From: a virus
Lineage: Duplodnaviria > Heunggongvirae > Uroviricota > Caudoviricetes
Length of the DNA stretch: 46,150 bases
Strand: one strand, 5' to 3'
Virus record (IMG/VR): IMGVR_UViG_2695420763_000017
Location: 1 to 46,150 of that record
Shown here: one piece after another, positions 8,011-46,150 of the stretch
How the letters are laid out: each line of letters starts with the position of its first letter
Position numbering within the stretch: the first letter of the stretch is position 1
Notes under the pieces: model-generated
Told to the model about the DNA's origin: nothing
Seen by the model: the letters and a program-made list of their open reading frames with translations, nothing else
Databases searched by the model: none
Program-made: the position numbers and the translations under genes

Positions 8011-8013
8011 CAT

Positions 8014-12207: not shown

Positions 12208-12217
12208 AGGAAACATC

Positions 12218-13447: not shown

Positions 13448-13473
13448 TTAGTCTTTTTACGTAATACAGCACG

Positions 13474-13493
13474 CCGCGTAATGCGGTTTTTTT
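13474..13493 (+). terminator. weak intrinsic terminator after the capsid gene
   Basis: CCGC-GTAAT-GCGG short stem followed by TTTTTTT. Confidence 0.4.
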
Positions 13494-13525
13494 GTGCCCG
13501 CGTTCTGGCGGGCACAGGAGGTTTT

Positions 13526-13849
13526 ATGCTGTTAAAAATGGAAGAGATTAAGCTTCAGCTTCGTCTGGATGATGATTTCTCTGATGAAGATGAGTTGCTT
13601 GAACTACTTGGGAAGGCCGCTCAGAGTCGGACGGAAAACTTCCTTAACCGTACGTTGTATGCAACCGCAGATGACAGGCCTGCGGATGATCCTGATGGGC
13701 TTGTGATATCTGATGATGTGAAGCTGGCGCTCCTGCTACTTGTCAGCCATTTCTACGAAAACCGCTCAACGGTTACAGACGTTGAGAAAATGGAGTTGCC
13801 AATGAGCTTTAACTGGTTGGTTGCTCCTTATCGCCTTATACCACTATGA
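13526..13849 (+). CDS. head-tail connector (gp6-like)
   Basis: AGGAGG RBS then ATG 13526; about 107 aa, acidic; conserved position. Confidence 0.75.
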   Translation: MLLKMEEIKLQLRLDDDFSDEDELLELLGKAAQSRTENFLNRTLYATADDRPADDPDGLVISDDVKLALLLLVSHFYENRSTVTDVEKMELPMSFNWLVAPYRLIPL

Positions 13850-14256
13850 AAATTCGTCAGGCGCAGACCAGCGCAACCTACATTCTGCCTGACCCAGGCG
13901 AGCTGAATAAACGCGTCCTGATCCGCCAGCGGGTGGATATGCCCGCGGATAACTTTGGCGTGGAGCCTCAATACCCGGTTGTGTTCCGGGCATGGGCGAA
14001 GGTTATCCAGACCAGTGCCACCACCTGGCAGGAAACAGCGCAGATCGGAGATGCCATCACCCATTACATCACCATTCGCTACCGCCGGGGGATCACTGCT
14101 GATTATGAGGTGGTCTGTGATGACAGTGTGTACCGGGTGAAACGTCAGCGTGATCTGAACGGGGCGCGGCGCTTTCTGCTGCTGGAGTGTACGGAACTGG
14201 GTGCCGAAGAACAAATGGGAGGACGCAGTGGAGCAGACAGCATTTTTACACGTTGA
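13846..14256 (+). CDS. head closure / head-tail adaptor protein
   Basis: 136 aa, start overlaps upstream stop; conserved position in HK97-like head modules. Confidence 0.7.
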   Translation: MKIRQAQTSATYILPDPGELNKRVLIRQRVDMPADNFGVEPQYPVVFRAWAKVIQTSATTWQETAQIGDAITHYITIRYRRGITADYEVVCDDSVYRVKRQRDLNGARRFLLLECTELGAEEQMGGRSGADSIFTR

Positions 14257-14752
14257 TTTCAAACAACCGGAGGAGATGGAGTTTAATCGTGCCAGGCTCC
14301 GAAAGGCATTTGTTCAAATCGGGCGTGTCTATATGCGTGATGCCCGGCGGCTGGTGATGCGGCGTGGTCGGTCTGCTCCAGGTGAAAACCCCGGCTATCA
14401 GACCGGACGACTTGCGCGTTCTATAGGTTATTACGTCCCCCGTAAAAGCTCCCGTCGTTCTGGCCTGATGGTCAGGATTTCCCCTAACCAGAAAAACGGG
14501 CAGGGTAACCGGCGTTTTCCTGAAGGTTCTGCGTATTATCCGGCGTTTCTGTATTACGGTGTGCGTTATGCCGCATACGGGATGAGCAAAAAGGATAAGC
14601 GCCAGAAAAAGCAGCATTCATCCCGCTGGCGGCTGGCACCACGTAATAACTTTATGGCTGATGTCATCGACCAGCGTCGTTACTGGACACAAAAGTTACT
14701 GTCCCGTGAGTTACAGCGGTCATTACGTCCTGTAAGAAGGAAAAAAACATGA
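14201..14752 (+). CDS. HK97 gp10-like neck/tail-joining protein
   Basis: Basic about 180-aa product; start uncertain (ATG 14201 or ATG 14276). Confidence 0.6.
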   Translation: MPKNKWEDAVEQTAFLHVDFKQPEEMEFNRARLRKAFVQIGRVYMRDARRLVMRRGRSAPGENPGYQTGRLARSIGYYVPRKSSRRSGLMVRISPNQKNGQGNRRFPEGSAYYPAFLYYGVRYAAYGMSKKDKRQKKQHSSRWRLAPRNNFMADVIDQRRYWTQKLLSRELQRSLRPVRRKKT

Positions 14753-15309
14753 AACTGACGCCTGTTATTGCTGCGCTGCGTGCCCGCTGCCCGTATTTTG
14801 AAAACCGGGTGGCAGGCGCGGCCCAGTTCAAAAATCTGCCGGAGGTCGGAAAGCTGAAACTCCCGGCGGCATATGTGGTACCGGGGGATGATTCTCCGGG
14901 AGAAAACAAAAGCCAGACCGACTACTGGCAGGAGCTGAAAGAGGGCTTCTCCGTGGTTGTCATACTGAGTAACGGGCGTGATGAGCGCGGTCAGTTTGCC
15001 TCGTATGATGTGGTGGACGATGTCCGGCAGATGCTCTTTAAGGCCCTGCTGGGCTGGAACCCGGAAGCGTGCGGTAACCCGATTACCTATGACGGCGGCA
15101 CGCTGCTGGATCTGAATCGTCATGAGCTGATTTATCAGTTCGATTTTTCGGTCATCAGCGAGCTGACCGAAGACGATACCCGCCAGCAGGATGAGCTGAA
15201 CAGTCTGGATGAACTGCGAACGCTGGCGATTGATGTTGATTATCTCGATCCCGGTAACGGGCCTGACGGCGATATCGAACATCACACCGAAATAACCCTT
15301 CCTTCCTGA
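14749..15309 (+). CDS. virion structural protein (tail completion/terminator-like)
   Basis: 186 aa, start overlaps upstream stop; precedes the sheath gene. Confidence 0.65.
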   Translation: MKLTPVIAALRARCPYFENRVAGAAQFKNLPEVGKLKLPAAYVVPGDDSPGENKSQTDYWQELKEGFSVVVILSNGRDERGQFASYDVVDDVRQMLFKALLGWNPEACGNPITYDGGTLLDLNRHELIYQFDFSVISELTEDDTRQQDELNSLDELRTLAIDVDYLDPGNGPDGDIEHHTEITLPS

Positions 15310-15317
15310 GAATCTTC

Positions 15318-15488
15318 ATGTTTGTGAAACCTGTTAAAGGGCGGTCAGTGCCTGACCCTGCCCGCGGTGACCTTTTGCCCACCGAAGGGCGAAATGTTGA
15401 CGAGAACAACTACTGGCTGCGCCGTGAAGCAGCGGGTGATATCCGGCGCGTGAATAAAAAGGTGAACACCGATGACGATAAGCTTTAA
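15318..15488 (+). CDS. small protein preceding the sheath gene (56 aa)
   Basis: ATG 15318 to TAA 15486-15488 read by hand; overlaps the sheath start; below the ORF-track cutoff. Confidence 0.3.
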   Translation: MFVKPVKGRSVPDPARGDLLPTEGRNVDENNYWLRREAAGDIRRVNKKVNTDDDKL

Positions 15489-16968
15489 CACCATTCCGTC
15501 GAATACGCTGGTTCCGCTGTTTTATGCGGAAATGGATAACCAGGCGGCGAATACTGCACAGGACAGCGGGGCATCGTTGCTGATTGGTCACGCCAATAAC
15601 GGTGCAGAGATTGTTGCCAACAGTCTGGTGCTGATGCCGTCGGCAGACTATGCACGCCAGATTTGTGGTGCGGGAAGTCAGCTGGCGCGTATGGTCGAGG
15701 CTTATCGCCAGACCGACCCGTTTGGCGAGCTGTATGTGATTGCCGTTCCGGAAGCCACAGGCGCGGCGGCAACGGTTACGCTGACGGTGACCGGGGCGGC
15801 AACCGAAACCGGCACGGTGAATGTTTATGTGGGACGTACCCGCGTGCAGGCACCGGTGACCAACGGCGATAACGTCGCGACGATTGCCAGCAGTATCAAA
15901 GATGCCATTAATGCCGTTCCGGCCCTGCCGTTTACGGCCTCATCTTCGGCAGGCGTGGTCACGCTGACCGCGCGTCATAAGGGGCTTTGCGGGAATGAAA
16001 TTCCTGTCAGCCTCAATTACTACGGCTTTGGTGGGGGCGAAGTGCTGCCAGCGGGCGTACAGATTGCCGTGGCGACGGGGAGCGCCGGAACGGGCGCTCC
16101 GGTTCTCACCGGTGCGGTGGCTGCAATGGCGGATGAGCCGTTTGATTATATTGGCCTGCCGTTCAACGACACGGCCTCCGTTAACACGCTGGTGACCGAG
16201 ATGAACGATACCAGCGGTCGCTGGAGCTATGCGCGTCAGCTGTATGGTCATGTGTATACGGCAAAGACCGGTACGCTGTCAGAACTGGTGACCGCAGGTG
16301 ACCAGTTTAACCAGCAGCACATTACCCTGGCGGGGTACGAAAAAGAGACCCAGACGCCTGCCGACGAGCTGGCGGCAAGCCGTACCGCCCGCGCAGCGGT
16401 GTTTATCCGCAACGATCCGGCACGTCCCACGCAGACCGGTGAGCTGGTGGGTATGCTGCCTGCGCCGAAGGGGAAACGGTTCACGATGACCGAACAACAG
16501 ACCCTGCTGTCTCATGGCGTGGCAACGGCGTATGTCGAAAGCGGGGTACTGCGCATTCAGCGTGATGTCACCACGTACAGGAAAAACGCTTACGGGGTTG
16601 CGGATAACAGCTACCTCGACAGTGAGACGCTGCATACCAGCGCGTATGTACTGCGCAAACTGAAATCCGTCATTACCAGTAAGTACGGGCGTCACAAGCT
16701 TGCCAGTGACGGTACCCGCTTTGGTCCCGGTCAGGCGATTGTCACTCCGGCGGTGATCAAAGGGGAACTGCTGGCAACCTACCGTCAGCTTGAGCGTGCG
16801 GGGATCGTGGAAAACTACGAACTGTTTAAGCAGTACCTGGTTGTGGAGCGTGATGCCAGCGATCCGAACCGCCTGAACACGCTGTTCCCGCCTGACTATG
16901 TTAACCAGTTGCGTGTTTTTGCCGTGGTTAACCAGTTCCGTCTTCAGTATTCAGAGGAGTCTGCATAA
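15472..16968 (+). CDS. contractile tail sheath protein (Mu gpL-like)
   Basis: 498 aa; followed by tube, chaperone and tape measure genes in canonical order. Confidence 0.9.
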   Translation: MTISFNTIPSNTLVPLFYAEMDNQAANTAQDSGASLLIGHANNGAEIVANSLVLMPSADYARQICGAGSQLARMVEAYRQTDPFGELYVIAVPEATGAAATVTLTVTGAATETGTVNVYVGRTRVQAPVTNGDNVATIASSIKDAINAVPALPFTASSSAGVVTLTARHKGLCGNEIPVSLNYYGFGGGEVLPAGVQIAVATGSAGTGAPVLTGAVAAMADEPFDYIGLPFNDTASVNTLVTEMNDTSGRWSYARQLYGHVYTAKTGTLSELVTAGDQFNQQHITLAGYEKETQTPADELAASRTARAAVFIRNDPARPTQTGELVGMLPAPKGKRFTMTEQQTLLSHGVATAYVESGVLRIQRDVTTYRKNAYGVADNSYLDSETLHTSAYVLRKLKSVITSKYGRHKLASDGTRFGPGQAIVTPAVIKGELLATYRQLERAGIVENYELFKQYLVVERDASDPNRLNTLFPPDYVNQLRVFAVVNQFRLQYSEESA

Positions 16969-17324
16969 TGGCCCGTATCGGGGGAACCTGTTATTTCAAA
17001 ATTGACGGTCAGCAGCTATCGCTGACCGGCGGCATTGAGGTGCCCATGAACAGGACGGTCAATGATGACATCATCGGCCTGGACGGTTCAGTGGACCGCA
17101 AGGAAACTCACCGTGCGCCTTATGTCAAAGGGACCTTCAAGGTGCCGAAGAATTTTCCGGTGAGCAAAATCACCTCGTCTGATGAGATGACCATCACTGC
17201 CGAGCTGGCGAACGGTCAGGTCTATGTATTGTCGTCCGCCTGGCTGCACGGAGAAGCGAACCATAATGCCGAAGAAGGCACGGTTGATCTTGAGTTCCAC
17301 GGTGAAGAAGGGGATTACCAGTAA
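16968..17324 (+). CDS. tail tube protein (Mu gpM-like)
   Basis: 118 aa; GAGGAG RBS; ATG overlaps the sheath stop. Confidence 0.85.
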   Translation: MARIGGTCYFKIDGQQLSLTGGIEVPMNRTVNDDIIGLDGSVDRKETHRAPYVKGTFKVPKNFPVSKITSSDEMTITAELANGQVYVLSSAWLHGEANHNAEEGTVDLEFHGEEGDYQ

Positions 17325-17593
17325 TGAAAGAGCTTGAGTTAAAGAAACCGATTATCGCTCATGGTGAGACACTCTCCGTACTGGAGTTTGATGAACCCAC
17401 CGGGAAGGATGTCCGCGAGCTGGGGTATCCCTACCAGATGAATCAGGATGAGTCCGTCAGACTTCTGGCGCATGTGGTGTCGAAATACATTGTGCGGCTG
17501 GCGAAAGTGCCGCAAAGCTCTGTCGACCAGATGTCTCCGGCAGACCTGAATGCAGCGGCGTGGCTTGTGGCTGGTTTTTTCCTCCAGGCCTGA
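17324..17593 (+). CDS. tail assembly chaperone (G-like), zero-frame product
   Basis: 89 aa directly upstream of the tape measure gene; contains the slippery site T_TTT_TTC near its 3' end. Confidence 0.75.
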   Translation: MKELELKKPIIAHGETLSVLEFDEPTGKDVRELGYPYQMNQDESVRLLAHVVSKYIVRLAKVPQSSVDQMSPADLNAAAWLVAGFFLQA

Positions 17594-17742
17594 CGGCTGA
17601 ATACCTCACTGATCGCTTCTTTGACTGCGCCAGCTACTGGCGCATTAATCCCTTCGAATTGCTGAATATGCCGATCAGTGAAATTCCCTTGCTGGTCAGT
17701 CAGGCAAACAGGATAGAGCAGGAGAAACGCACACATGGCTGA
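17575..17742 (+). other. -1 programmed frameshift site and extension (GT-like fusion chaperone)
   Basis: Heptamer T TTT TTC at 17575-17581 in the zero frame; the -1 frame stays open to 17742 and overlaps the tape measure start. Confidence 0.55.
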
Positions 17743-28117: not shown

Positions 28118-29671
28118 ATGGGTATTGAAAGTGAATTGATAGAATTCCTTGAGCGCAGCGTCAAAGATGGTGCGAATAAGGCTAGGGATATTGAAATTGT
28201 AAAATTCTACTATGGTCTAAATGACTCGCCTTGGCCCACATTAGATGAAACTGCAAGCCGATTTGGTGTTGGTACCAGAGAAAGAATTAGGCAGTTACTA
28301 AATTTCAAATTCCGAAATAATGTCAGCAAAAACTCTATTCCATCGCTAGGCAAAGTTATTAAAGTTTTGCAGTCCAGAGAATATTGGTTGCTCTCAGAGT
28401 TTGAAGAAGAAACTTATAATGCGGGGCTGGTCGAGAAGGAAAGCCACTTAAAGGGAATATTTAATTTAATTGAGGATGTCAACCTTGATTGTGGGTTCGA
28501 TTTTTACACTCCGGAGTTAAAGCGAGCCACGAGAAACTCGATTGTAACTAGTAAGAATATATTCTTGATCAGGAATTCTGCTATCAAGAACGTTGAAAAG
28601 TTGCTCAAAAAAGCAAAAATTCTCCCGGGACGCTGCGGTATTGCAAATTTAAATTATCTAAAAGAAGAGATGGGTCAGTACTATTCGCTCGTTTCATTGT
28701 TAATTGCAAATGCGCCTACGTCTTGGGTTAGAGTGATTGACGATAATTACTGGTATGTTTTTGAGAATAGAGATAACACCATTATCAACTACAGCGAAAA
28801 GGTTTTTGGTGTTTTTGAAAACTGTGATCCATCTAGATTGGCAGAGACATATAGAAATGCCCTTAATGGAAGGAGTAATAAGTACCCGTATCCACCAGCA
28901 GAAGTTATCGATGACTATTTAAGAAGTTCTATCTATATGATTAATACGCATTCTGGACTAAAATTCATCGGTGAAAAAAACAAGCTTAATGAGATCGAAA
29001 AAGATTTAATATCTTTTTTGGACTCTTCCGGAAGCGTCTCATTTTCAACGCTTTATAAATATTTGTTGCAAAAAGGTTATGGGAAGCCGCATATATTAAA
29101 AACTACGAATTTTTCACCATTAGTATATGTAGATAAGACCAAAGGTAGAAAACATTATATGTATAGCTTAGTTGGTCATCGAATTTCTGCACATAATAAC
29201 ACCTCAGAGATGGATAAATATGAAATTTATCTTCGTAGATTAAGAGCTCTTCTCGATGTTGGAACGGATGAGACAAGAGAGCAGAAAGCTAGAAAAGAGC
29301 AGCATATTTTACAAGAGTGGCTTTTTAAGGATAAAACGCATGAGACCTGCGCTATCTGCGGAAAAGAGTTCAGCGTAAAAACGTTAGTAACGGCACATAA
29401 AAAGCCGAGATCAGACTGCAATGATGCAGAACGCTTAGATCCATATATTGTAATGCCAGTGTGTTTGATGGGGTGCGATTATCTTTACGAAAATATGTAT
29501 ATCTATATTGACGGTACTGAAATTAAACGTGGTCTGACGTTATCGAACGCAAGGAGTGAATCAAGAGTCATTGATGACCTTGTTGGGCGAAAAGTTGAAC
29601 CAAAATGGCTTTTAGGAAATCAGTCTTATTTTCGTTCGCCTAACAAAGAATTGCAGCGGATAAGTCGCTGA
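28118..29671 (+). CDS. HTH (sigma-70 region-4-like) plus C-terminal HNH-like nuclease protein, unknown function
   Basis: AAGGAG RBS; N-terminal LDETASRFGVGTRERIRQLL; C-terminal CAICGKEF...TAHKKPRSDCNDAERLD...PVCLMGCD (about residues 410-455); AT-rich. Confidence 0.75.
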   Translation: MGIESELIEFLERSVKDGANKARDIEIVKFYYGLNDSPWPTLDETASRFGVGTRERIRQLLNFKFRNNVSKNSIPSLGKVIKVLQSREYWLLSEFEEETYNAGLVEKESHLKGIFNLIEDVNLDCGFDFYTPELKRATRNSIVTSKNIFLIRNSAIKNVEKLLKKAKILPGRCGIANLNYLKEEMGQYYSLVSLLIANAPTSWVRVIDDNYWYVFENRDNTIINYSEKVFGVFENCDPSRLAETYRNALNGRSNKYPYPPAEVIDDYLRSSIYMINTHSGLKFIGEKNKLNEIEKDLISFLDSSGSVSFSTLYKYLLQKGYGKPHILKTTNFSPLVYVDKTKGRKHYMYSLVGHRISAHNNTSEMDKYEIYLRRLRALLDVGTDETREQKARKEQHILQEWLFKDKTHETCAICGKEFSVKTLVTAHKKPRSDCNDAERLDPYIVMPVCLMGCDYLYENMYIYIDGTEIKRGLTLSNARSESRVIDDLVGRKVEPKWLLGNQSYFRSPNKELQRISR

Positions 29672-29758
29672 AGACGGTGTTATGTTGAGACTGCTAACTT
29701 CCTGTTTTTGTTGGTGTTGTCCTAACACTGTCTAATCATGATTGGTGGGCTGGCGGGA

Positions 29759-29940
29759 GTTGAAACCGCAGACACGTCGTATGCAAGAACGTGCTGCGGT
29801 TGGCTGGTCAGCTTCTGATAGTGAGAATATTGAATGATTTCAAGCTGTTATCGATTTTACGTATTTTTTGCATGAAAAGATTAGCACCTCATCCCACCGC
29901 TCCTCCATGATTTTACACCACTGTCTCTAGAGCTCTGTGT
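29759..29940 (+). repeat. leader element copy B (paralogous to 27705-27890)
   Basis: Colinear similarity to copy A including inverted repeat GCAGACACGT-N12-ACGTGCTGC. Confidence 0.55.
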
Positions 29941-30060
29941 GCCAGAAGCGGAAGTTCATACCTCTAAGTGGATATTTTGTTAAAATATGCCATCAAAATC
30001 CTTGCTACCTCATGGTTGACAGTGATAAAAGTTGCACAAATTACTGAGAGAGAAATTACA

Positions 30061-30498
30061 ATGAGTGGAGATACCTCTGAGTTTCCTAATAAACTTCCCA
30101 GAAAGCCAATTGGTTGGCGTGAAGAATATAGTGATTTTACAGGTAGTATTATATTCTATATGATATTCCCGTTGCTTCCATTACTTTTTGAGTCAATTAA
30201 CACAGGAACTCACCCTACAATACAATCATTAACAATTACTGCATCAATATACTCTTTTTCCATCGGTGTATCTTCTCGAGATAAAGCTATTTTTTGCTTA
30301 GGGATTTTTTGTGGTTTCATTCTCGCTTATCTTTACGGTAAAGTTAGTGAGCCAAAAGTTATTATATATACCTGGTACTATGTAGTTACGGTGATACTAC
30401 TGGCTGTAATATTTATATTTCATCTTCTCGAACGATTTAATAAACACGTGGTAGAATGTGAGCCTGTTTTCTCCTTTAAGTTTACGAGAGGTATGTAA
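30061..30498 (+). CDS. small polytopic membrane protein (about 4 TM)
   Basis: GAGAGAG RBS then ATG 30061 (ORF track extends to 29968); hydrophobic helices throughout. Confidence 0.55.
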   Translation: MSGDTSEFPNKLPRKPIGWREEYSDFTGSIIFYMIFPLLPLLFESINTGTHPTIQSLTITASIYSFSIGVSSRDKAIFCLGIFCGFILAYLYGKVSEPKVIIYTWYYVVTVILLAVIFIFHLLERFNKHVVECEPVFSFKFTRGM

Positions 30499-30965
30499 TG
30501 GAGGATATTATATTTATGTATGCTGGGTTGATAGTGTCTTCTTTAGCGGCAATTGTAGGCTTAGCTACATCTATCATGCATACTCGTAAAAAAGTTAAAG
30601 CTAATGAAGAGCTTGCAACTGAAATGGCAAAGAGCTTTAGTGAGCTTGAATCTATCAATAAAAGCATAGGGGATTTGGAAGCGACAATTAAAAGGATAGA
30701 TGAAGATGAATTAAAGTTAAGAATAGCAATTGAATCTTTAAAGGAAATGATTTCTGATGAAAAAAAAGAATCTAGGGATATGTTGAAAACCATCGTTAAT
30801 GATGAGGTGTTCATTAAAGTTCTTCTCGAAAGCTATAAAAAACTGGATACCCAGTCAAAGAAGGAGATTTATTTGACTTTTTCCAAGTCGACAGATAGAG
30901 GCCTTTATCGATATATAAAAAGAATAGCTTCATCAGTACTCGATAACTTAATGGTTAAAATATAA
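30498..30965 (+). CDS. membrane-anchored coiled-coil protein
   Basis: N-terminal TM helix (AGLIVSSLAAIVGLATSIM) then charged heptad-like region; start overlaps upstream stop (ATGTAATGG). Confidence 0.6.
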   Translation: MEDIIFMYAGLIVSSLAAIVGLATSIMHTRKKVKANEELATEMAKSFSELESINKSIGDLEATIKRIDEDELKLRIAIESLKEMISDEKKESRDMLKTIVNDEVFIKVLLESYKKLDTQSKKEIYLTFSKSTDRGLYRYIKRIASSVLDNLMVKI

Positions 30966-31520
30966 ATGCGTGCGCGCGAGATACAATTTCTCGCGCATTG
31001 TGTAACCGGCGACAAAACCCTGTTATCATTATAGCGACCCGTTTAGATGGGCTATTTGTGCCCCAACAGCTTCTGGGTATAGATTTCCTCGGCCCTGTAT
31101 AGATACTTTGCTAAAGAGTATTTTAATGGGATTTTGCTTACGTACCATTCTTCTAACGAATGTCTGCCTTATCCTGTGAGCTGCCTTCGCTCAGCATTGG
31201 CCTGTTTCTCGTTGATTTATATACTGCGACACTAACATAGGCGGATATGTCCGCTCCTCGCTCATAACAGACATTCACTACAGTTATGGCAGAAAGGTAT
31301 GCATGCTGGGTGGGGAAAGTATGAAGGAAAAGAAAACTGCTGCGCTGTTTGTCGTCACGTTTATCTTCATTGGCTATGCAAGTCATAATACAAGGTGGGA
31401 CAAAACTGAGACACATAAGGCCTCACAATGGCTTGCAAGGCTTTACATGTTTTGATGTGGTGGGACGTGTGAGCGCAGTGTTGATGGGGTAATGCTTTGA
31501 ATTAGAAGCGGATTCTTATA

Positions 31521-31566
31521 ATTCGTAATGCGAAGGTCGTAGGTTCGACTCCTATTATCGGCGCCA
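31521..31566 (+). other. att core: 46-nt copy of the 3' half of tRNA-Thr(CGU) (thrW-like), not an intact tRNA
   Basis: ATTCGTAATGCGAAGGTCGTAGGTTCGACTCCTATTATCGGCGCCA matches anticodon loop (CGT), variable loop, T-arm and acceptor 3' strand of enterobacterial tRNA-Thr from memory; no 5' half or D-arm upstream. Confidence 0.75.
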
Positions 31567-31732
31567 TTCTAATGTCTCCCCAAGTCTACTCAAGTATTTA
31601 AAAACCTCTTATAATCCGCATGTTAGCGCCCCTTTTAGTCTTTTGACGTCTACTTAAGTACTCCAAAATCTACAGTCAATTGGGGGTACTTTTGGGGGTA
31701 TTTGCTGTTCGGTTTAGTGGAGGTACCCCCAA

Positions 31733-32947
31733 GTGAAACTCAATGCCCGTCAAATAGACACTGCCAAGCCAAAAGAGAAGGCTTACAAGCTGGCTGATGG
31801 TGGTGGTCTGTATCTCTTGGTAAAACCTAGTGGAGGAAAATATTGGCGCTTCAAGTATCGTGTAGCTGGTAAAGAGAAGCTGTTAGCACTAGGTGTGTAT
31901 CCTGAAGTTACCTTGGCTGATGCTCGTGCAAAACGTGAAGAAGCTAAAAGGGGTATCGCTGGGGGTATCGATCCGATGGAAGCGAAACGAGAGGAAAAGA
32001 TTGCCCGGGAAACGCAGTTAAACAACACCTTCAAAGATATTGCCCTTGAGTGGCACAGCAGCAAATTAAAAAAATGGTCTGCTGGTTATGCTTCAGACAT
32101 CCTCGAAGCCTTCAACAAAGATGTGTTCCCTTACATTGGCAAAAAACCAATCGCCGAAATCAAACTACTTGAACTGCTGAATGTGCTGCGGCGCATCGAG
32201 GGGCGCGGTGCTACCGAAAAAGCCAAAAAAGTGAGGCAGCGATGTGGGGAAGTTTTCCGCTATGCAATTGTCACTGGACGTGCTGAGTATAACCCTGCAC
32301 CGGATCTCACCAGCGCGATGCAAGGTCATGAATCTAATCATTATCCTTTCCTCACAGCCAAAGAATTACCTGATTTTTTCAAGGCATTGTCCAGTTACTC
32401 AGGAAGTGCATTGGTTGTTATGGCGGCTCGTTTACTGATTATCACCGGTTTGCGGACTGGCGAACTGCGCGGTGCATTATGGGATGAAATCGATCTCAAC
32501 AAGGCTATCTGGGAGATACCTGCTTCACGGATGAAAATGCGTCGCCCTCATGTAGTGCCTTTGTCTGAGCAGGCTCTTTCGCTTATTGGGCAGATTAAAG
32601 AACTAACTGGCAATTATCCGCTTATGTTTCCCGGCCGTAATGATCCAAGGAAAACAATGAGCGAGGCTAGCATAAACCAAGTATTTAAACGCATCGGCTA
32701 TAACGGAAAGGTTACTGGTCATGGCTTCCGGCACACTATGAGCACCATTTTGCATGAGCAGGGCTATAACACCGCGTGGATAGAGACACAGCTTGCGCAC
32801 GTCGATAAAAACTCAATTCGTGGCACATACAACCATGCGCAATATCTGGATGGGCGGCGGGAAATGCTTCAGTGGTACGCTGATTATATGGATTCGCTCG
32901 AGCATGGCGGAAATGTGGTGCATGGTGAGTTCGGAAAATGCGGGTGA
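31733..32947 (+). CDS. int: tyrosine integrase, P4 family
   Basis: GTG 31733 with GGAGG RBS; N-terminal arm-binding motif GGLYLLVKPSGGKYWRFKYR; catalytic region with HGFRHT and terminal tyrosine region; immediately downstream of the att core. Confidence 0.95.
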   Translation: MKLNARQIDTAKPKEKAYKLADGGGLYLLVKPSGGKYWRFKYRVAGKEKLLALGVYPEVTLADARAKREEAKRGIAGGIDPMEAKREEKIARETQLNNTFKDIALEWHSSKLKKWSAGYASDILEAFNKDVFPYIGKKPIAEIKLLELLNVLRRIEGRGATEKAKKVRQRCGEVFRYAIVTGRAEYNPAPDLTSAMQGHESNHYPFLTAKELPDFFKALSSYSGSALVVMAARLLIITGLRTGELRGALWDEIDLNKAIWEIPASRMKMRRPHVVPLSEQALSLIGQIKELTGNYPLMFPGRNDPRKTMSEASINQVFKRIGYNGKVTGHGFRHTMSTILHEQGYNTAWIETQLAHVDKNSIRGTYNHAQYLDGRREMLQWYADYMDSLEHGGNVVHGEFGKCG

Positions 32948-33075
32948 CTGGTTGAGTATACAGTAGTAGACTTTGAGCGACGAAAGAAAAGGCTGTGTCT
33001 AGGGTCGCTCCCGAAAATCCGTACACCTCGACGGACTGGTACAGCCACTACAGTAGAGGACGCTGAGGTGTGCGT

Positions 33076-33873
33076 ATGATTGATATTCATGCCGAATTAA
33101 ACGAATACAAAAAAGATTTTATTTCTTTACGTGAATTTCTTGAGGTCGTGCTTAAGGTCGCTGGTGATGATTATGATGTTTCAGATGTCATAACTTGGAT
33201 ACTCAGGAGAATAAGCGGAGAACATATCCGCCTGTACACAGTAAATGAATTTAAGCTGTTGGAATCTTTTTGTAACCCGTATCGGGATGAATTTGATAAT
33301 GATGTTCTTTATAGAAATCTGAATGCGGTTCGGAAACGTGGTTGTTTACCTGGTGAGAGGGATGAAAATGGTTTTCTGGTGTCCGGTTATTGGGAAGATC
33401 CCGAATTTGAGAACATTGGATTTATAAGGGGTGAAATTTTCGCAATTTTTCCCGATGTCCTTGACGCGTTAACGAAGCTGGAAGGCGCTAACTCTTCTGA
33501 AAATGACGAGGCACAAGGACGCGATATTGAAAAGAAAGAGTTGCGTACAGAGGATGATTTATTATCCCAAATCGCAATGCTGGAAAAAGAAAACGCAGAG
33601 TTAAGGGCAAGGATAGAGCAGTTAGAGCAAGAGCGCCCGATACACTTATATAAATACTGGGATAAAGACCCATTAGCTAAGGCTATTGAGATTAGAAACA
33701 GAGAGTGGGCCAATTACGATCCAGAAAATGATTTTGCCACCAGGGGAAATCAAGAAGCGATAACCAGGGAGCTTAAGCAGTGGGGGGCAAGTAATGCACT
33801 TGCAACGCTCATAGAGAGGACTGCCTGCCCTATTAACCGAGACAACAGCCAAAAGAACGCAAAGCCGGATTAA
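33076..33873 (+). CDS. hypothetical acidic coiled-coil protein (cargo next to int)
   Basis: GAGG RBS then ATG 33076; central EKENAELRARIEQLEQE coiled coil; unrecognised. Confidence 0.6.
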   Translation: MIDIHAELNEYKKDFISLREFLEVVLKVAGDDYDVSDVITWILRRISGEHIRLYTVNEFKLLESFCNPYRDEFDNDVLYRNLNAVRKRGCLPGERDENGFLVSGYWEDPEFENIGFIRGEIFAIFPDVLDALTKLEGANSSENDEAQGRDIEKKELRTEDDLLSQIAMLEKENAELRARIEQLEQERPIHLYKYWDKDPLAKAIEIRNREWANYDPENDFATRGNQEAITRELKQWGASNALATLIERTACPINRDNSQKNAKPD

Positions 33874-33888
33874 CGCACCATACCGCAT

Positions 33889-34034
33889 ACCCTGAGGGTG
33901 ATTTACTGTTACCCTGAGGGTATTTTTTTATCTTCCCCGTCAATTTTACCATCACCCTTAGGGTAGATTTCCTCCCGATTACCATCACCCTTAGGGTAGA
34001 TTTCCTTCCGGTAACCATTAGGCCTGAGGGTATG
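33889..34034. promoter_or_regulatory. array of five palindromic sites ACCCT(G/T)AGGGT (putative operator)
   Basis: Sites at 33889-33899, 33911-33921, 33955-33965, 33988-33998 and a variant near 34023; two lie in a 26-bp direct repeat ACCATCACCCTTAGGGTAGATTTCCT. Confidence 0.5.
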
Positions 34035-34100
34035 AAAATATTCGTTATTTCTGTGCCATGATTACCTCGTCAAATTGAGTAGACGTTATGAGGTAAATAT

Positions 34101-34298
34101 ATGTCAAATACGCTTATTCGTTTAACAGAAGTTCAGCGTAGAACTGGATATAGCAAGGCATGGATTTATCGCCTTATGGGGCAAGGTAAATTTCCTGCAT
34201 CAGTTAAAATTGGCTCGCGAGCTATTGCTTTCGTTGAGAGTGAAATTGACGAGTGGATTAATCAGCGTATTGCGGAATCACGCGGAACAGCTACCTGA
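34101..34298 (+). CDS. alpA: AlpA-family transcriptional regulator / excisionase-like protein
   Basis: GAGG RBS; LIRLTEVQRRTGYSKAWIYRLMGQGKFPASVKIGSRAIAFVESEIDEWI matches the AlpA HTH family. Confidence 0.85.
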   Translation: MSNTLIRLTEVQRRTGYSKAWIYRLMGQGKFPASVKIGSRAIAFVESEIDEWINQRIAESRGTAT

Positions 34299-34375
34299 TT
34301 AAATGGCTACGGGGCTATTGCCCCCAGCTATCCACCAGCAAATAAAAGTAACTTAATTCGATAGCAGGAGTTTTT

Positions 34376-35176
34376 ATGAAATTTCCAAAAACGCCCGTAC
34401 AGGGGCGGGGCTTCGTTCGGCCTGAAAACCAGAATCTGCAAAATTTCGGCGAAATTATCCCGATTATTTCCGGCGTTATTGGCGGGAGTGAAACCACTAT
34501 TGTTAGCGCCAGAGCGTTACATAAGGCGTTAGGTGTAGGGCGCGTTTTCCGTTCGTGGATCAAGGGGCGCATTGAAGAATATGGGTTCACGGAAGGCGTG
34601 GATTATGAGGTTGTTGAATATTTGAGCCGACCCGATCCGGTGAGCGCAAAATCTCGCCAGCAAACCGCTCTTGAGTACATCATCACAGTGAACATGGCGA
34701 AAGAACTGGCGATGGTCGAACGTACCGAACAGGGCCGCGCCGTTCGCCAGTACTTTATCAAATGCGAGGAGGAGCTACACAAGGTTGCGCCTGTTCGTTC
34801 CGCAGCGTTACGCCGGGAACTGAAAGCCCGTATCACAGTTGCCAGCTACTTTAAGCCAATGTGTGCCGCGCTGGAGGCGTACCGGGCTGAACTGGGTAAA
34901 AACACACTCCAGCACCACTACACCACGGAAGCGAACATGCTGGCGCGTATCGTGCTGGGTGGCATGACTGCAAAACAGTGGGCACTGGCGAACGGCATTA
35001 CAGGCGAACCACGCGACCACATGAGTACGTTGCAGCTTGAGCACCTTTCTTACCTTGAGCAGAGCAATATCACGCTGATTGAGTTAGGCCAGGACTACCA
35101 CCAGCGGAAGGCTGAATTAATTCGTCTTTCGCAGCGTTGGTTAGCCCGTCGCATGGAGGAAAACAGCCATGTGTAA
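34376..35176 (+). CDS. phage antirepressor-like / regulatory protein
   Basis: AGGAG RBS; 266 aa; N-terminal domain resembles antirepressor/Rha-type regulators (inference from memory). Confidence 0.55.
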   Translation: MKFPKTPVQGRGFVRPENQNLQNFGEIIPIISGVIGGSETTIVSARALHKALGVGRVFRSWIKGRIEEYGFTEGVDYEVVEYLSRPDPVSAKSRQQTALEYIITVNMAKELAMVERTEQGRAVRQYFIKCEEELHKVAPVRSAALRRELKARITVASYFKPMCAALEAYRAELGKNTLQHHYTTEANMLARIVLGGMTAKQWALANGITGEPRDHMSTLQLEHLSYLEQSNITLIELGQDYHQRKAELIRLSQRWLARRMEENSHV

Positions 35177-35635
35177 CGCTCTGACCGTTACAAAAAGAGA
35201 AAGCGCCCCGTTGCCGGAGCGCCTTTGTGAACGAATAGCCTACTGCGCCATATTGCTTACTGTCTACGAGGCAGATTATAGCGTTGTGGTCGCACAGAGT
35301 GAAGGCGCTGATCACCGTTACTACAGCACGCCAGAAATGCAGAATATTTTGCTGCAAAATGTCGTTGGTCACACTGTCCGGAAAGCAAAAAATTTTGCTG
35401 GTGGCGCGACTGATGCGATTTTGTCAGGTCGCCAGGTGCTGATCAATCTGATGTCTGATTTCGTTCTGGATAAAACAAAGGCGACCGCAGAGGGCCGCCA
35501 GTGGGAAAGCTACATACCTGAACGCATCGCCAACAATGCCAGATTTACGGCTGGTGGGCAATGTGTCAGCTTTGCACCAATGACTCTATGTTTAACTGAG
35601 GGTCATTATGGTGAATATGCTGGCTTGCTGGTGGG

Positions 35636-35836
35636 CTATTCCTGCTCTTTAACATTGCCATGCCGCGATGTTTTCCAGGTATGCGACCCCATTTTTGTGC
35701 GCCTGTACTCTTTAAGGAATTTCTCAAGGACAAACGCACAGGGCGCGAATCTGTCTGACTCATGCTCGTACGCTATCTTTCTGCGCTGTCTTTTCCGTGC
35801 CGGTGATGGTGTATTGGTTGATTCTTTGTTGGTCAT
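35636..35836 (-). CDS. small hypothetical basic protein
   Basis: Minus-strand ORF downstream of the RHH gene; ends in the same ...KEQE-stop and shared 17-bp DNA repeat; could be non-coding. Confidence 0.3.
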   Translation of the reverse strand: MTNKESTNTPSPARKRQRRKIAYEHESDRFAPCAFVLEKFLKEYRRTKMGSHTWKTSRHGNVKEQE

Positions 35837-35893
35837 GGCGCTGCCCTGTAAAATAATGCACCGTAGTTCCTCACACCACGGCACCTATAGTGG

Positions 35894-36199
35894 TTATTCC
35901 TGCTCTTTAGCTTTGCGCCGCTGGAGTTCTTCACGCGCGACGGTGACGAGTTGCCCGATTTCCTCGGCAGCTTTGACTCCGATTTTTTCCACCTGCGCTA
36001 GGGCATCGAGCGAAGAAACCAGGGGATTTTCTCCGCTTCCTTCTGCCTGGCGGCGGGCGATTTCACCGCGAACGGCTGTAATCACGAAAGCGGCTATTGT
36101 TTCCCCTTCCGTTTTCGAATTTTCCATTTCCTCGATTACATCATGGGGGAAGCGGATATTTTTCATTTGCGATCTGCTGTTGATGTTTCCTGTTGCCAT
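35894..36199 (-). CDS. Arc/MetJ-type ribbon-helix-helix repressor-like protein
   Basis: KNIRFPHDVIEEMENSKTEGETIAAFVITAVRGEIARR fits a beta-strand plus two-helix RHH fold; transcribed leftward from the divergent region (alternative start 36166). Confidence 0.55.
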   Translation of the reverse strand: MATGNINSRSQMKNIRFPHDVIEEMENSKTEGETIAAFVITAVRGEIARRQAEGSGENPLVSSLDALAQVEKIGVKAAEEIGQLVTVAREELQRRKAKEQE

Positions 36200-36261
36200 C
36201 AGAATGTCCGGTTATTTTGAGGTGTGTACACATTACACCAAAAGGTGTGTTGATAAAACAC

Positions 36262-36291
36262 TTGACACTGTAGCACACTTAAATTTAATTT
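36262..36291 (+). promoter_or_regulatory. putative rightward early promoter within divergent operator region
   Basis: TTGACA (36262-36267), 17-18 nt spacer, TTAATT/TAATTT; flanked by GTGTACAC-type palindromes. Confidence 0.3.
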
Positions 36292-36389
36292 GTATACACA
36301 CCAATTGTTGTGGTGTATATACAGCAACGCCCCGCAGTGGTGGCACACATGCAGGGCGTCTAACCAAACCGTTAAACGAGGTAACGATT

Positions 36390-36755
36390 ATGGCTGGAAC
36401 ACAGCATACCCAAACTCACCCTAAATTTATATACACCTTCCTGGCGGTGCACCGTGATTGCATTGCTGACGGTAAAAACACTGTACACGTAGCCGCCGAT
36501 ACGCTGGTTGATGCCTGCGAGATGCTCAATGACATGGGCTATATCTCGGCAACATGGAAAGGGCGCGAAGAAAACACGCTGTTTATTCAGAAATGCGAAA
36601 ACAATTTTATCTGGCGTTTTATCGCCCTGAGTACGGCACAACCGCGCGTGATTCACATCGAGGCCACCAGCGAACAGGAAGCACGCCAGCAATCTCCTGA
36701 TGGCTGCGTGATGGTATTCGCTGCCCGTATTCGCCAGGAGGTGGAGCATGTGTAA
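36390..36755 (+). CDS. hypothetical protein, first gene of rightward operon
   Basis: GAGG RBS 8 nt upstream of ATG 36390; 121 aa; in-frame distal part of the long 35169-36755 open frame. Confidence 0.6.
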   Translation: MAGTQHTQTHPKFIYTFLAVHRDCIADGKNTVHVAADTLVDACEMLNDMGYISATWKGREENTLFIQKCENNFIWRFIALSTAQPRVIHIEATSEQEARQQSPDGCVMVFAARIRQEVEHV

Positions 36756-45370: not shown

Positions 45371-46150
45371 ATGAAGATGCCCTCAATCAAAGTTATTTCA
45401 CTTATATTAATAGCTATTGTATGGTATTTTTACTTTTCTCATTTCAATCATTGGGATAGCCCGTTAGATATCTTTAATGCTAGCAAATGGATGGGTTTTT
45501 CCAATGATAAAGGTGATTGGGGCACTTTCGGGGATTTTGTAGGAGGTGTGCTTAATCCTATCTTGACCTTCATTACAATTGTTATGCTCATTAATTCCTT
45601 GAAACTTCAACGAGAAGCAAACGAGCAACTAATTAAAGACGAAAGAAGACAAGAGAAAGACGTTCTTCTAAAACGGTTTGAAGACGGTTTTTATAACCTT
45701 ATCTCTTCAGAAAGAGAGGAGTTTAGTTGTTTTACTATTAACATTAACGGAAAAGAATACCGCTCATCTGCTGCTGTTAGTGAATTGGAAGAGGCAATAT
45801 GGGCTTTTATTGAGAAACAAATAGATGAAAAAGGAGCTTGCGAAATTGAGGATGTTAAAAATTACATAAATAAAATTGATGAGGATTCATCTATGGCAAT
45901 ATTTTCCATGGTGCGATGTGTATATGTTGTTTTTAAGGTTGTTAAGGATAAATGCCCTGAAGAACATCAAGATTACTACTTAGATATTTTTATGAATATG
46001 TTACCAGTTAAACTGGTAAATTTAGTTGCTATTGTGTCTGTGTATATGGACTGGAAAAACGTAAAATATATTATTGATGGTGGAAAAGGATTTTCGGATA
46101 ATGAAGCAGTTAAAGAATATATTAATACTTGGAAGGAGTTTCATGAATAA
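45371..46150 (+). CDS. hypothetical membrane protein (259 aa; two N-terminal TM helices plus charged domain)
   Basis: ATG immediately follows upstream TAA; TM1 about residues 6-22, TM2 about 53-76; stop TAA at window end. Confidence 0.7.
   Translation: MKMPSIKVISLILIAIVWYFYFSHFNHWDSPLDIFNASKWMGFSNDKGDWGTFGDFVGGVLNPILTFITIVMLINSLKLQREANEQLIKDERRQEKDVLLKRFEDGFYNLISSEREEFSCFTININGKEYRSSAAVSELEEAIWAFIEKQIDEKGACEIEDVKNYINKIDEDSSMAIFSMVRCVYVVFKVVKDKCPEEHQDYYLDIFMNMLPVKLVNLVAIVSVYMDWKNVKYIIDGGKGFSDNEAVKEYINTWKEFHE

What the first reader, a model, noticed from the sequence alone, without database searches (positions are those of the whole stretch)
31521..32947. tRNA-Thr 3'-half att core directly upstream of a P4-family integrase: tandem elements or internal attP
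Seen: 46 nt matching the 3' half of tRNA-Thr(CGU) but no 5' half, with prophage tail and cargo genes to the left and int, alpA, a repressor switch and a primase to the right. A 12-mer GTCTACTCAAGT occurs twice between core and int (31584, 31648) but not left of the core. Inference: this is a hybrid junction, most simply attR of the lambdoid prophage fused to attL of a P4/PICI-like element in tandem at thrW. Alternative: one circularly permuted phage genome whose attP-int-early region is on the right.
Basis: partly seen in the sequence, partly recalled or inferred. Interest (0 to 1): 0.55.

Follow-up and report, generated by a model that had tools for sequence, protein, structure and literature searches.

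The report
Prophage–satellite tandem junction at thrW
The 46-base tRNA-Thr fragment is the shared attachment-site copy between two independent mobile elements inserted one after the other at the thrW gene, an SfV-type prophage on the left and a small P4-integrase phage satellite on the right; this arrangement is real but ordinary.

Summary
Window 31521-31566 is the last 46 nt of thrW, 45/46 identical with A->G at 31563. No 5' half is present and no tRNA gene is called.

This sequence is the published attP core of SfI/SfII/SfV/SfX/P22. Phage homology (SfV 97.7%; SfII/SfIV attP arm) stops at 31568-31572. Homology to a satellite that sits alone behind an intact thrW starts at 31521.

A close relative, E. 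coli F9792, shows the full array: proA, intact thrW, SfV-type int, prophage, 46-nt copy, P4-type int, about 14.6 kb of satellite, short copy TTCCTATTATCG-CACCA, chromosome.

All occupancy states occur among 5426 complete E. coli genomes:
- empty site: 948
- satellite-type int behind intact thrW: 869
- prophage alone: 338
- this tandem: 52
- reverse order: at least 1

The integrase is 96% identical to that of EcCIMP1, a published, experimentally mobilised thrW PICI. It is 43% identical to P4 Int, and its arm repeats are laid out like P4 attP.

The permuted-phage alternative is rejected. This is a known kind of structure and of low novelty.

The parts
1..31520 (+). Right-hand ~31.5 kb of an SfV-family prophage. 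It runs from late-early genes through lysis, cos/terminase, head, contractile tail, tail fibre and cargo. Its own attL (intact thrW), int and xis lie upstream of the window.
   Evidence: 97.7% identity to phage SfV over 69% of 7000-31566, beginning at SfV base 1. Colinear with the F9792 prophage, whose left end is thrW followed by int on the minus strand.
31396..31520 (+). P arm of the prophage attachment site, i.e. the attR arm. The wider block 31247-31520 is conserved with the junction in all 52 tandem genomes.
   Evidence: 96.6-98.3% identity to the attP regions of SfII and SfIV, between gtrA and int. Base-for-base comparison.
31521..31566 (+). 46-nt core, the 3' part of thrW from the anticodon loop to CCA. 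It serves both as attR core of the prophage and, through its last ~17-20 nt, as attL core of the satellite. A->G at 31563.
   Evidence: Identical apart from 31563 to the 46-base core published for SfI/SfII/SfV/SfX/P22 (PMC3636060).
31550..31568 (+). Satellite core TCCTATTATCGGC(G)CCA plus TT. The inferred 7-nt strand-exchange segment C(A/G)CCATT is 31562-31568.
   Evidence: The satellite attR in F9792, STEC276, ARS-C101 and MP1 reads TTCCTATTATCG-CACCA, with one G missing. The crossover position is inferred from which side carries the indel. The repeat TCCTATTATC was proposed as the EcCIMP1 core (PMC11773190).
31567..31732 (+). P' arm of the satellite attachment site, i.e. the attL arm, which also contains the int leader.
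   Evidence: Identical to the sequence that follows intact thrW in the satellite-only strain STEC276. Conserved layout across the integrase clade.
31584..31595 (+). GTCTAC box 1 (GTCTACTCAAGT)
   Evidence: GTCT.C is invariant and the A is conserved in 11 of 12 P' arms next to four tRNA gene types. A GTCTAC lies at about -148 from the int start in many relatives.
31648..31659 (+). GTCTAC box 2 (GTCTACTTAAGT), 64 nt after box 1
31668..31673 (+). ATCTAC box 3, within the invariant AAATCTA
   Evidence: Alignment.
31680..31703 (+). Tandem pair of 12-nt arm-type repeats, TTGGGGGTACTT and TTGGGGGTATTT
   Evidence: D3. Same position and layout as the annotated arm repeats of P4 attP. They change together with the inverted copy in the tRNA-Gly-targeting relatives.
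31723..31736 (-). Inverted copy of the arm-type repeat (GTACCCCCAAGTGA), overlapping the GTG start of int
   Evidence: I1, I3. P4 has an inverted arm repeat over its int start.
31733..32947 (+). P4-type tyrosine integrase, 404 aa
   Evidence: Pfam domains Arm-DNA-bind_3, Phage_int_M and Phage_integrase. 43% identity to P4 Int, E=6e-117. 389/404 identical to EcCIMP1 Int.
32992..33059 (+). int-alpA RNA motif (Rfam RF02996)
   Evidence: 45.5 bits against a gathering score of 35.8.
34101..34298 (+). AlpA-family regulator and putative excision factor
   Evidence: Pfam Phage_AlpA, E=2.4e-19.
33070..46150 (+). Body of the satellite: 267-aa ORF, alpA, antA-like gene, regulatory region, small ORFs, DUF4222, D5-type primase-helicase, ProQ/FinO-like, PerC-like, unknowns, HTH/TerS-like 181-aa ORF and two terminal ORFs. 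Its attR lies about 270 nt beyond the window end.
   Evidence: Colinear with the F9792 and STEC276 satellites. attR position.

Best explanation
Two unrelated integrative elements occupy the same tRNA gene, thrW, head to tail.

The left element is an SfV-family temperate phage. Its integrase uses a 46-bp core running from the anticodon loop to the CCA end of thrW. Integration rebuilds an intact thrW at the phage's left end, which is outside the window. It leaves the displaced 46-nt 3' part at the right end (attR).

The right element is a roughly 15-kb PICI-like phage satellite. Its P4-type integrase uses only the last ~17-20 nt of the same tRNA. Its arm-type sites are laid out as in P4 attP.

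In the array, the 46-nt copy at 31521-31566 is both the prophage's attR core and the satellite's attL core. The satellite's own attR is the short copy TTCCTATTATCG-CACCA and lies about 270 nt beyond the window end.

Each element should be able to leave on its own.
- Phage Int/Xis would recombine thrW with the junction copy, leaving thrW-satellite.
- Satellite Int, probably with AlpA, would recombine the junction copy with the short distal copy, leaving thrW-prophage-chromosome.

Shown here: the boundaries, the identities of both elements, and the existence of every predicted occupancy state.

Inferred, not shown:
- The crossover segment C(A)CCATT.
- The roles of the GGGGGTA boxes (Int arm sites) and the GTCTAC boxes (Int or AlpA sites).
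- The order of arrival, most simply satellite first and phage later into the intact tRNA.
- Dependence of the satellite on a helper phage.
For: 1. Core. The sequence is unique in the window and matches thrW at 45/46 positions. It is the same 46 bases published as the attP/attL/attR core of SfI, SfII, SfV, SfX and P22.

2. Left boundary. SfII and SfIV attP homology runs 31396-31572 and 31396-31568. In SfII the core is then followed by the phage's own int on the minus strand. The prophage is 97.7% identical to SfV.

3. Right boundary. Window 31521-35924 is 99.5% identical to STEC276, where the satellite follows an intact thrW directly and ends before the LysR gene.

4. Three att copies in the colinear relative F9792:
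- intact thrW followed by the SfII-type P' arm and int;
- the junction copy;
- the short copy before the chromosomal flank.

5. A reconstructed empty site matches strain 88-3493 at 832/832 and is present in 948 genomes. Other states: satellite-type int behind intact thrW in 869 genomes, top hits 99.8%; prophage arm, core and chromosome in 338, including strain D9 with the same cargo; tandem in 52; reverse order in ARS-C101.

6. Integrase. P4-type domains, 43% identity to P4 Int, 96% identity to EcCIMP1 Int. EcCIMP1 excision, circularisation and transfer were shown experimentally (PMC11773190).

7. Arm repeats. Tandem GGGGGTA pairs sit in both arms and an inverted copy sits over the int start. 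P4 attP has the same layout. The boxes are conserved or change together across relatives that sit next to tRNA-Thr, tRNA-Arg (two isoacceptors) or tRNA-Gly (further tRNA targets).

8. Tandem occupation of thrW has experimental precedent. SfI integrated at attL of a resident SfX (PMC3306764).

9. Similar partial-tRNA junctions precede related integrases in about 8 of 79 loci from other species and in 4 of 8 IMG/VR contigs.
Against: - The window contains neither outer att copy. The three-copy structure is therefore inferred for this genome from relatives that are 97-99% identical and colinear.
- The exact source genome was not found. The best E. coli match covers 72% of 21151-46150, because cargo segments differ.
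- The junction copy carries A->G at 31563, inside the inferred crossover segment. It is absent from all comparators and might impair satellite excision.
- No capsid-size or clear small-terminase gene was identified in the satellite, so helper dependence is unproven.
- No DNA is shared with the neighbouring prophage.
Confidence: 0.9

Rival explanations
1. The window is one circularly permuted phage genome. The tRNA fragment is its internal attP and the P4-type int is its own integrase.
For: The core lies directly upstream of an int gene, as in a free-phage attP-int module. The window starts and ends at gene boundaries, like a predicted provirus.
Against: - In SfII the core is followed by a different integrase on the opposite strand. 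That integrase sits next to the intact thrW at the far end of the F9792 prophage.
- No phage record spans the junction: 0 of 170 reach 80% coverage.
- The right-hand block occurs alone behind thrW and the left-hand block occurs alone.
- No structural or lysis genes lie right of the core.
Confidence: 0.02
2. The junction is a tandem att site, but the right-hand element is a generic or decaying P4-integrase genomic island, not a helper-dependent phage satellite.
For: - Only three of the five PICI core functions are recognisable: int, alpA and primase. De Sousa et al. call this profile ambiguous, Type C.
- thrW also hosts non-satellite islands with the same integrase type, for example the vat/MarR island next to EcCIMP1.
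- The primase is frameshifted in F9792.
- The A->G change lies in the inferred crossover segment.
Against: - EcCIMP1 has the same integrase (96%) and the same Type C profile, and was shown to excise and be transduced by a helper phage.
- In the window, int, alpA and the primase-helicase are full-length.
- Near-identical copies are found in different contexts and in E. ruysiae.
- Size and gene order fit Gram-negative PICIs.
Confidence: 0.2
3. The array arose by homologous recombination or by a rearrangement between two differently occupied thrW loci, not by two successive site-specific integrations.
For: The 46-nt copies and the flanking shared sequence could support RecA-mediated exchange after transfer of DNA from another strain. 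The end product would be identical, so the sequence cannot exclude it.
Against: - The boundaries fall exactly at the att cores of both elements.
- Sequential site-specific integration into thrW has been reproduced in the laboratory.
- Both orders of the two elements exist, as expected if each integrase chooses among available copies.
Confidence: 0.05

Closest known systems
EcCIMP1, a phage-inducible chromosomal island of E. coli MP1 (ISME J 2025, PMC11773190)
   Same: - Integrated at tRNA-Thr next to proA, with the flanking repeat TCCTATTATC.
- Integrase 389/404 identical; attL arm 91% identical; attR reads TTCCTATTATCGCACCA, preceded by a GGGGGTA tandem pair.
- Shares AlpA, AntA-type antirepressor, DUF4222, Icd-like and PerC-family genes.
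- Also sits in a tandem array, followed by a second island with a truncated integrase of the same type.
   Different: - Beyond int, only weak DNA similarity remains: 70-74% in alpA and antA, and none afterwards.
- The replication protein is TOPRIM/DUF927 in EcCIMP1 and D5_N/DUF5906/Pox_D5 here.
- EcCIMP1 carries P22-like ejection and DUF2824 genes that are absent here.
- Size is 20 kb against about 15 kb.
- The neighbour is an island on the distal side there, and a prophage on the tRNA side here.
Satellite phage P4 (attP and Int)
   Same: - Integrase family, 43% identity over the full length.
- The core is the last ~20 nt of a tRNA gene.
- Tandem arm-repeat pairs in both arms and an inverted repeat over the int start.
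- int lies directly downstream of, and co-oriented with, the tRNA.
   Different: - The target is leuX, not thrW.
- The window element gave no Pfam or PHROG hits of the Psu, Delta, Sid or Epsilon type.
- Its primase is D5-type and not P4 alpha. It is therefore not a P4-like satellite in the SatelliteFinder sense.
Serotype-converting Shigella phages SfV, SfII, SfI and SfIV (and P22) integrating at thrW
   Same: - Same 46-base core and same P arm.
- 97-98% identity across packaging, head and tail genes.
- The cargo slot lies between the tail-fibre genes and attP.
   Different: The gtrABC O-antigen genes are replaced by a NeuD/PglB-family acetyltransferase, a MaoC-like dehydratase and unknown ORFs.
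Tandem SfI-SfX lysogen at thrW (BMC Microbiol 2011, PMC3306764), and PICI/PICI or PICI/prophage tandems discussed by Mageeney et al. (PMC10111431)
   Same: Several elements share one tRNA att site and are separated by internal att copies. The incoming phage uses the intact-tRNA (attL) copy.
   Different: Here the two elements use different integrase families and cores of different length within the same tRNA: 46 nt from the anticodon loop, against about 17-20 nt at the 3' end. The internal copy is therefore a hybrid of two unlike att systems.

Membership tests
P4-type (DUF4102/Arm-DNA-bind_3) tyrosine integrases | N-terminal arm-binding domain, central domain and C-terminal tyrosine-recombinase catalytic domain | tested here: met
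   Pfam Arm-DNA-bind_3 (3.6e-29), Phage_int_M (6.4e-34) and Phage_integrase (4.3e-26).
P4-type (DUF4102/Arm-DNA-bind_3) tyrosine integrases | Full-length sequence similarity to P4 Int, including the catalytic motifs | tested here: met
   43% identity, E=6e-117, over residues 1-387. LRTGELR, HGFRHT and RGTYNH align with the corresponding P4 motifs (read from the alignment).
P4-type (DUF4102/Arm-DNA-bind_3) tyrosine integrases | attP with a core at the 3' end of a tRNA gene and repeated arm-type sites on both arms | tested here: met
   P' arm in the window. P arm in F9792, ARS-C101 and MP1. Layout compared with the annotated P4 attP. Binding itself was not tested.
PICI (phage-inducible chromosomal island, Gram-negative type) | Integrase at one end, site-specific integration, size about 10-20 kb, no phage structural or lysis genes | tested here: met
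   About 14.6 kb in F9792 and about 14.9 kb inferred here.
PICI (phage-inducible chromosomal island, Gram-negative type) | AlpA (or Stl/MerR) regulator next to int | tested here: met
   Phage_AlpA, 2.4e-19. The Rfam int-alpA RNA lies between them.
PICI (phage-inducible chromosomal island, Gram-negative type) | Primase/replicase module | tested here: met
   D5_N, DUF5906 and Pox_D5 domains in the 601-aa ORF.
PICI (phage-inducible chromosomal island, Gram-negative type) | Capsid-morphogenesis gene and a small terminase or Rpp packaging-redirection gene | tested here: inconclusive
   Only a weak small-terminase PHROG hit (1.8e-06) and an HTH_17 hit for the 181-aa ORF at 43505-44050. Nothing was found for capsid morphogenesis.
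PICI (phage-inducible chromosomal island, Gram-negative type) | Induction, excision and transfer dependent on a helper phage | not testable with these tools
   Shown only for the relative EcCIMP1 with phage Kapi1.
P4-like satellite (SatelliteFinder definition) | The psu-delta-sid capsid-hijacking operon and epsilon (ash) | tested here: not met
   Of the 20 satellite ORFs scanned with Pfam, none gave a hit of this kind. The ten that were also scanned with PHROGs gave none either. Definition.
SfV-family thrW-integrating prophage (attR end) | 46-base core identical to the thrW 3' part | tested here: met
   45/46.
SfV-family thrW-integrating prophage (attR end) | P-arm homology and SfV-type late genes, ending at the core | tested here: met
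SfV-family thrW-integrating prophage (attR end) | gtrABC serotype-conversion genes immediately upstream of attP | tested here: not met
   Replaced by an acetyltransferase, a dehydratase and unknown ORFs. The phage is therefore SfV-like in backbone and att but is not a gtr converter.

The most novel reading that the evidence does not exclude
The adjacency is not accidental. On this reading the SfV-type prophage is the helper of the neighbouring satellite, and sharing one att copy couples their life cycles. For example, prophage excision would rebuild thrW directly upstream of the satellite int and change its expression. A related reading is that the private A->G change in the inferred 7-nt crossover segment has locked the satellite next to the prophage.

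The evidence does not exclude either reading, but it gives no support. Co-occurrence is about what independence predicts: 52 tandems observed against roughly 66 expected from the counts. This is a rough figure, because the genomes are not independent. No cos-like or other DNA is shared between the two elements.
Probability: 0.07. Interest if true: 0.45.

Novelty: new member of a known kind. Interest (0 to 1): 0.2.

Why it matters
The main value is for annotation. The window would be read by prophage predictors as one 46-kb virus, but it is two elements that mobilise separately. The boundary can be placed to the base: core 31521-31566, phage to the left, satellite to the right.

The case also gives a clean natural example of one tRNA gene serving two integrase families through nested cores: 46 nt from the anticodon loop, and about 17-20 nt at the 3' end.

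It extends the integrase/att module of the experimentally studied PICI EcCIMP1 to a mosaic relative with a different replication module and different distal genes.

The conserved box architecture of the P' arm could guide binding experiments. It has three (G/A)TCTAC boxes that stay nearly constant across tRNA targets, and GGGGGTA boxes that change together with the integrase. None of this changes current understanding.

Tried and rejected
- Permuted single-phage reading: rejected.
- Helper link through shared DNA or cos between prophage and satellite: blastn found nothing better than 16-nt chance matches, E>=0.09.
- Reverse-order junction built from the F9792 satellite end plus the SfV P' arm: 0 genomes at >=80% coverage. 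The partial hits then led to ARS-C101, where a variant satellite lies between thrW and an SfV-type prophage. The idea that the order is fixed was dropped.
- PADLOC on the cargo and terminal ORFs: no defence-system hit apart from one weak match, 2.4e-4.
- Rfam at gathering threshold: only the int-alpA RNA. There was no tRNA, no C4 RNA and no other regulatory RNA family at gathering threshold.
- Search for the source contig or for the G variant in IMG/VR: 8 contigs carry the junction motif, all with A. No E. coli complete genome covers more than 72% of the right half.
- Extra copies of the 12-mer near alpA and at 44464 as conserved operator sites: not conserved at those places in 17 relatives, where only the P'-arm pair recurs.
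- One literature query failed on term length.
Full report
**Observation**

The stretch 31521-31566 reads ATTCGTAATGCGAAGGTCGTAGGTTCGACTCCTATTATCGGCGCCA. It is unique in the window and none is expected by chance. Against the intact thrW of E. coli F9792 it matches the last 46 nt at 45/46 positions. The only difference is A->G at 31563, the discriminator position. ARAGORN finds no tRNA gene in the window, and the bases to the left are not a tRNA 5' half.

The 12-mer GTCTACTCAAGT is at 31584. The copy at 31648 is GTCTACTTAAGT, 11/12. Two further copies lie deeper in the right-hand element, at 44464 (exact) and 34073 (minus strand, 1 mismatch). That gives four hits against 0.16 expected, none of them left of the core.

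**Left element**

Window 7000-31566 is 97.7% identical to Shigella phage SfV over 69% of its length, starting at SfV base 1. SfII, SfI and SfIV follow closely. The genes are lambdoid late-early genes, a P27-type terminase, an HK97-type head and a Mu-like contractile tail.

With a query that crosses the core, phage homology ends at 31568-31572 (SfIV and SfII attP regions, 98.3% and 96.6%). In SfII this region lies between gtrA and the phage's own int, which is on the opposite strand. The SfII attP reads P arm, 46-nt core, TTTAAATCAATAAGTTACAC. The window has the same P arm and core but a different continuation.

The literature gives exactly these 46 bases as the common core of SfI, SfII, SfV, SfX and P22 at thrW (PMC3636060). 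In place of gtrABC, the window prophage carries other cargo: a NeuD/PglB-family acetyltransferase, a MaoC-like dehydratase and unknown ORFs.

**Right element**

From 31521 onward the window is 99.5% identical to E. coli STEC276. In that strain the same block follows an intact thrW directly and ends before a LysR-family gene.

The block encodes:
- a 404-aa integrase with Arm-DNA-bind_3, Phage_int_M and Phage_integrase domains;
- AlpA;
- an AntA-type antirepressor;
- a DUF4222 protein;
- a D5-type primase-helicase;
- ProQ/FinO-like and PerC-like proteins;
- several unknown ORFs.

It has no structural or lysis genes.

The integrase is 43% identical to P4 Int over its full length. It is 389/404 identical to the integrase of EcCIMP1. 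EcCIMP1 is a published PICI at tRNA-Thr next to proA. Its helper-dependent excision, circularisation and transfer were shown experimentally, and its proposed core is TCCTATTATC (PMC11773190). Beyond int and the att arms the two islands diverge: 70-74% identity in alpA and antA, then nothing, with different primase types. The window element is therefore a mosaic relative of EcCIMP1.

It is not a P4-like satellite in the SatelliteFinder sense, because no psu, delta, sid or epsilon homologues were found. By the same scheme it is a Type C PICI, as EcCIMP1 is.

**The full array in a relative**

F9792 is colinear with the window apart from cargo segments. Its order is as follows:
1. proB-proA
2. intact thrW
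3. TTTAAATCAATAAG (SfII-type P' arm)
4. SfV-type int on the minus strand, then the prophage
5. P arm
6. 46-nt copy
7. satellite P' arm and P4-type int, then 14.6 kb of satellite
8. GGGGGTATCTTTGGGGGTATC...TGTTCCTATTATCG-CACCA
9. TTTAAATCAAGTAG
10. LysR gene

There are thus three att copies, and the middle one is the feature under study. The window stops at the stop codon of the last satellite ORF, about 270 nt short of the third copy.

**Population test**

I built the junctions that excision of either or both elements would leave and searched 5426 complete E. coli genomes.

| Site state | Genomes | Detail |
|---|---|---|
| Empty site (proA-thrW-TTTAAATCAAG-LysR) | 948 | one match at 832/832 |
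| Intact thrW followed by satellite P' arm and int | 869 | best 99.8% |
| Prophage P arm, core and chromosomal flank | 338 | includes strain D9, same prophage cargo, no satellite |
| Tandem junction as in the window | 52 | |

The opposite order is thrW, satellite, short core, SfV P' arm and int. It was not found with the exact F9792 satellite end. It does exist with a variant satellite in ARS-C101. Both elements are therefore separate insertions, and either att copy can be used.

From these counts, independence would predict roughly 66 tandems against 52 seen. This rough figure gives no sign that the two elements attract each other.

**How the site is built**

The satellite attL arm (31567-31732) contains, in order:
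- GTCTAC boxes at 31584 and 31648;
- an ATCTAC box at 31668;
- a tandem pair TTGGGGGTACTT and TTGGGGGTATTT at 31680-31703;
- an inverted copy, GTACCCCCAAGTGA, over the GTG start of int.

The distal arm in F9792, ARS-C101 and MP1 carries another GGGGGTA tandem pair about 75 nt before the short core. P4 attP is annotated with the same arrangement: a tandem pair in each arm and an inverted repeat over the int start, with GGGGGCA boxes there.

Integrase relatives were collected from 79 loci in other species. Those above about 70% identity lie some 165 nt downstream of an intact tRNA-Thr(CGU). More distant ones lie next to tRNA-Arg, -Gly, -SeC, -Ser or -Phe. In an alignment of twelve P' arms next to tRNA-Thr, tRNA-Arg (two isoacceptors) or tRNA-Gly:
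- GTCTAC box 2 and the AAATCTA core of box 3 are invariant, and box 1 is nearly so (GTCT.C invariant);
- the GGGGGTA boxes change together, including the inverted copy, to GTGTATA and TATACAC in the tRNA-Gly group.

I read the GGGGGTA boxes as integrase arm-type sites. I read the GTCTAC boxes as sites for a more conserved partner, either AlpA acting as directionality factor or a second integrase contact. Both readings are inference.

**Crossover position**

In four independent arrays the satellite's distal copy lacks one G (TTCCTATTATCG-CACCA), while attL keeps the tRNA's GG. The downstream TTC against TTT difference stays with the satellite's P' side. If the missing G belongs to the satellite attP, exchange must occur between these two markers. 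That places it within C-A-C-C-A-T-T, window 31562-31568.

The private A->G at 31563 lies in this segment. It is absent from all comparators and from 8 IMG/VR contigs that carry the motif. By analogy with other tyrosine recombinases, a mismatch there could lower satellite excision. This is untested, and the partner copy lies outside the window.

**Order of arrival**

The phage core begins in the anticodon loop, so the phage can use only a copy that contains the 46 nt. The satellite needs only the 3' end, so it can use the intact tRNA or the 46-nt copy. The window's order therefore arises in one of two ways:
- the phage enters the intact thrW of a satellite carrier, as SfI did with a resident SfX (PMC3306764);
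- the satellite enters the attR copy of a lysogen.

The sequence cannot decide between them.

**Generality**

About 8 of the 79 cross-species loci have a partial tRNA in front of the related int. Examples are tRNA-Thr fragments in Phytobacter and Morganella and tRNA-Arg fragments in Xenorhabdus and Photorhabdus. Two of the latter are preceded by a P-arm motif resembling that of the SfV family.

In IMG/VR, four contigs show the satellite behind intact thrW, three show the same phage arm as here, and one shows a different phage arm. PICI/prophage and PICI/PICI tandems are an accepted category in the literature.

**Verdict**

It describes a known kind of structure built from a known phage family and a relative of a known PICI. 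Interest is low. The practical value is a base-accurate boundary between two elements that would otherwise be merged into one provirus.

Noticed in passing
window 32992-33059 (+): Rfam int-alpA RNA motif (RF02996), 45.5 bits against a gathering score of 35.8. It lies just after the int stop codon and before a 267-aa ORF of unknown function that precedes alpA.
   Followed up: no
window 35169-36755 (+); also L001 18911-20218: A stop-free frame of 528 codons (435 in F9792) runs across the regulatory region between antA and the Icd-like/primase operon. It is antisense to small RHH-like ORFs. Only its last ~50 residues match anything (Icd-like / PHROG 'transcriptional repressor'). The frame stays open even though 35924-36609 is a replaced segment relative to F9792 and STEC276. 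It may be a shadow ORF, but its length is unusual.
   Followed up: partly
window 33888-34033: Five palindromic CCT(G/T)AGGGTA boxes, two of them inside 33-nt direct repeats, lie immediately upstream of alpA. They are candidate operator sites for a satellite regulator.
   Followed up: no
window 44051-44272: Four to five AAAAGTGTCAA(G/C) iteron-like repeats in both orientations lie directly downstream of a 181-aa HTH protein with a weak small-terminase PHROG hit (43505-44050). This is a candidate replication origin or packaging site.
   Followed up: no
window 34073-34084 (-) and 44464-44475 (+): Two more copies of the GTCTACTCAAGT motif. One lies 17 nt upstream of alpA and one 68 nt upstream of the terminal two-gene block. 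All four copies are in the satellite. These two are not conserved at equivalent places in 17 relatives.
   Followed up: partly
window 26192-30965: The prophage cargo slot, where SfV-family phages carry gtrABC, holds other genes instead. They are a NeuD/PglB/VioB-family sugar acetyltransferase, a MaoC-like dehydratase, and 517-, 176- and 155-aa ORFs with no family or PADLOC hit. The same cargo occurs in strain D9 without the satellite. It may be a different surface-polysaccharide modification module.
   Followed up: partly
window 31563: An A->G substitution at the tRNA discriminator position of the junction copy. It is private to this window, absent from F9792, STEC276, ARS-C101, MP1 and 8 IMG/VR contigs. 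It falls in the inferred satellite crossover segment.
   Followed up: partly
L050 and L054 (Xenorhabdus japonica, Photorhabdus heterorhabditis), about 290-120 nt upstream of the int match: A partial tRNA-Arg(UCU) precedes a related P4-type int. It is itself preceded by GGTGGGACGTGTGAGCGC...GCGGTAAT, which resembles the SfV-family P arm. This suggests the same phage-satellite pairing at a different tRNA in other genera.
   Followed up: no
L005 (E. coli ARS-C101) 4542-21242: An array in the reverse order: thrW, a variant satellite (same int and alpA, but a RepA-type helicase replaces the D5 primase), the short core, and an SfV-type int with its prophage.
   Followed up: yes
window 37754-38044 and 40757-41044; L002 15645-15824 and 16752-17246: Both the SfV-type prophage family (in F9792) and the satellite encode DUF4222 and PerC-family proteins. 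Cross-talk between them is possible but was not examined. No DNA similarity was found between the two elements.
   Followed up: no
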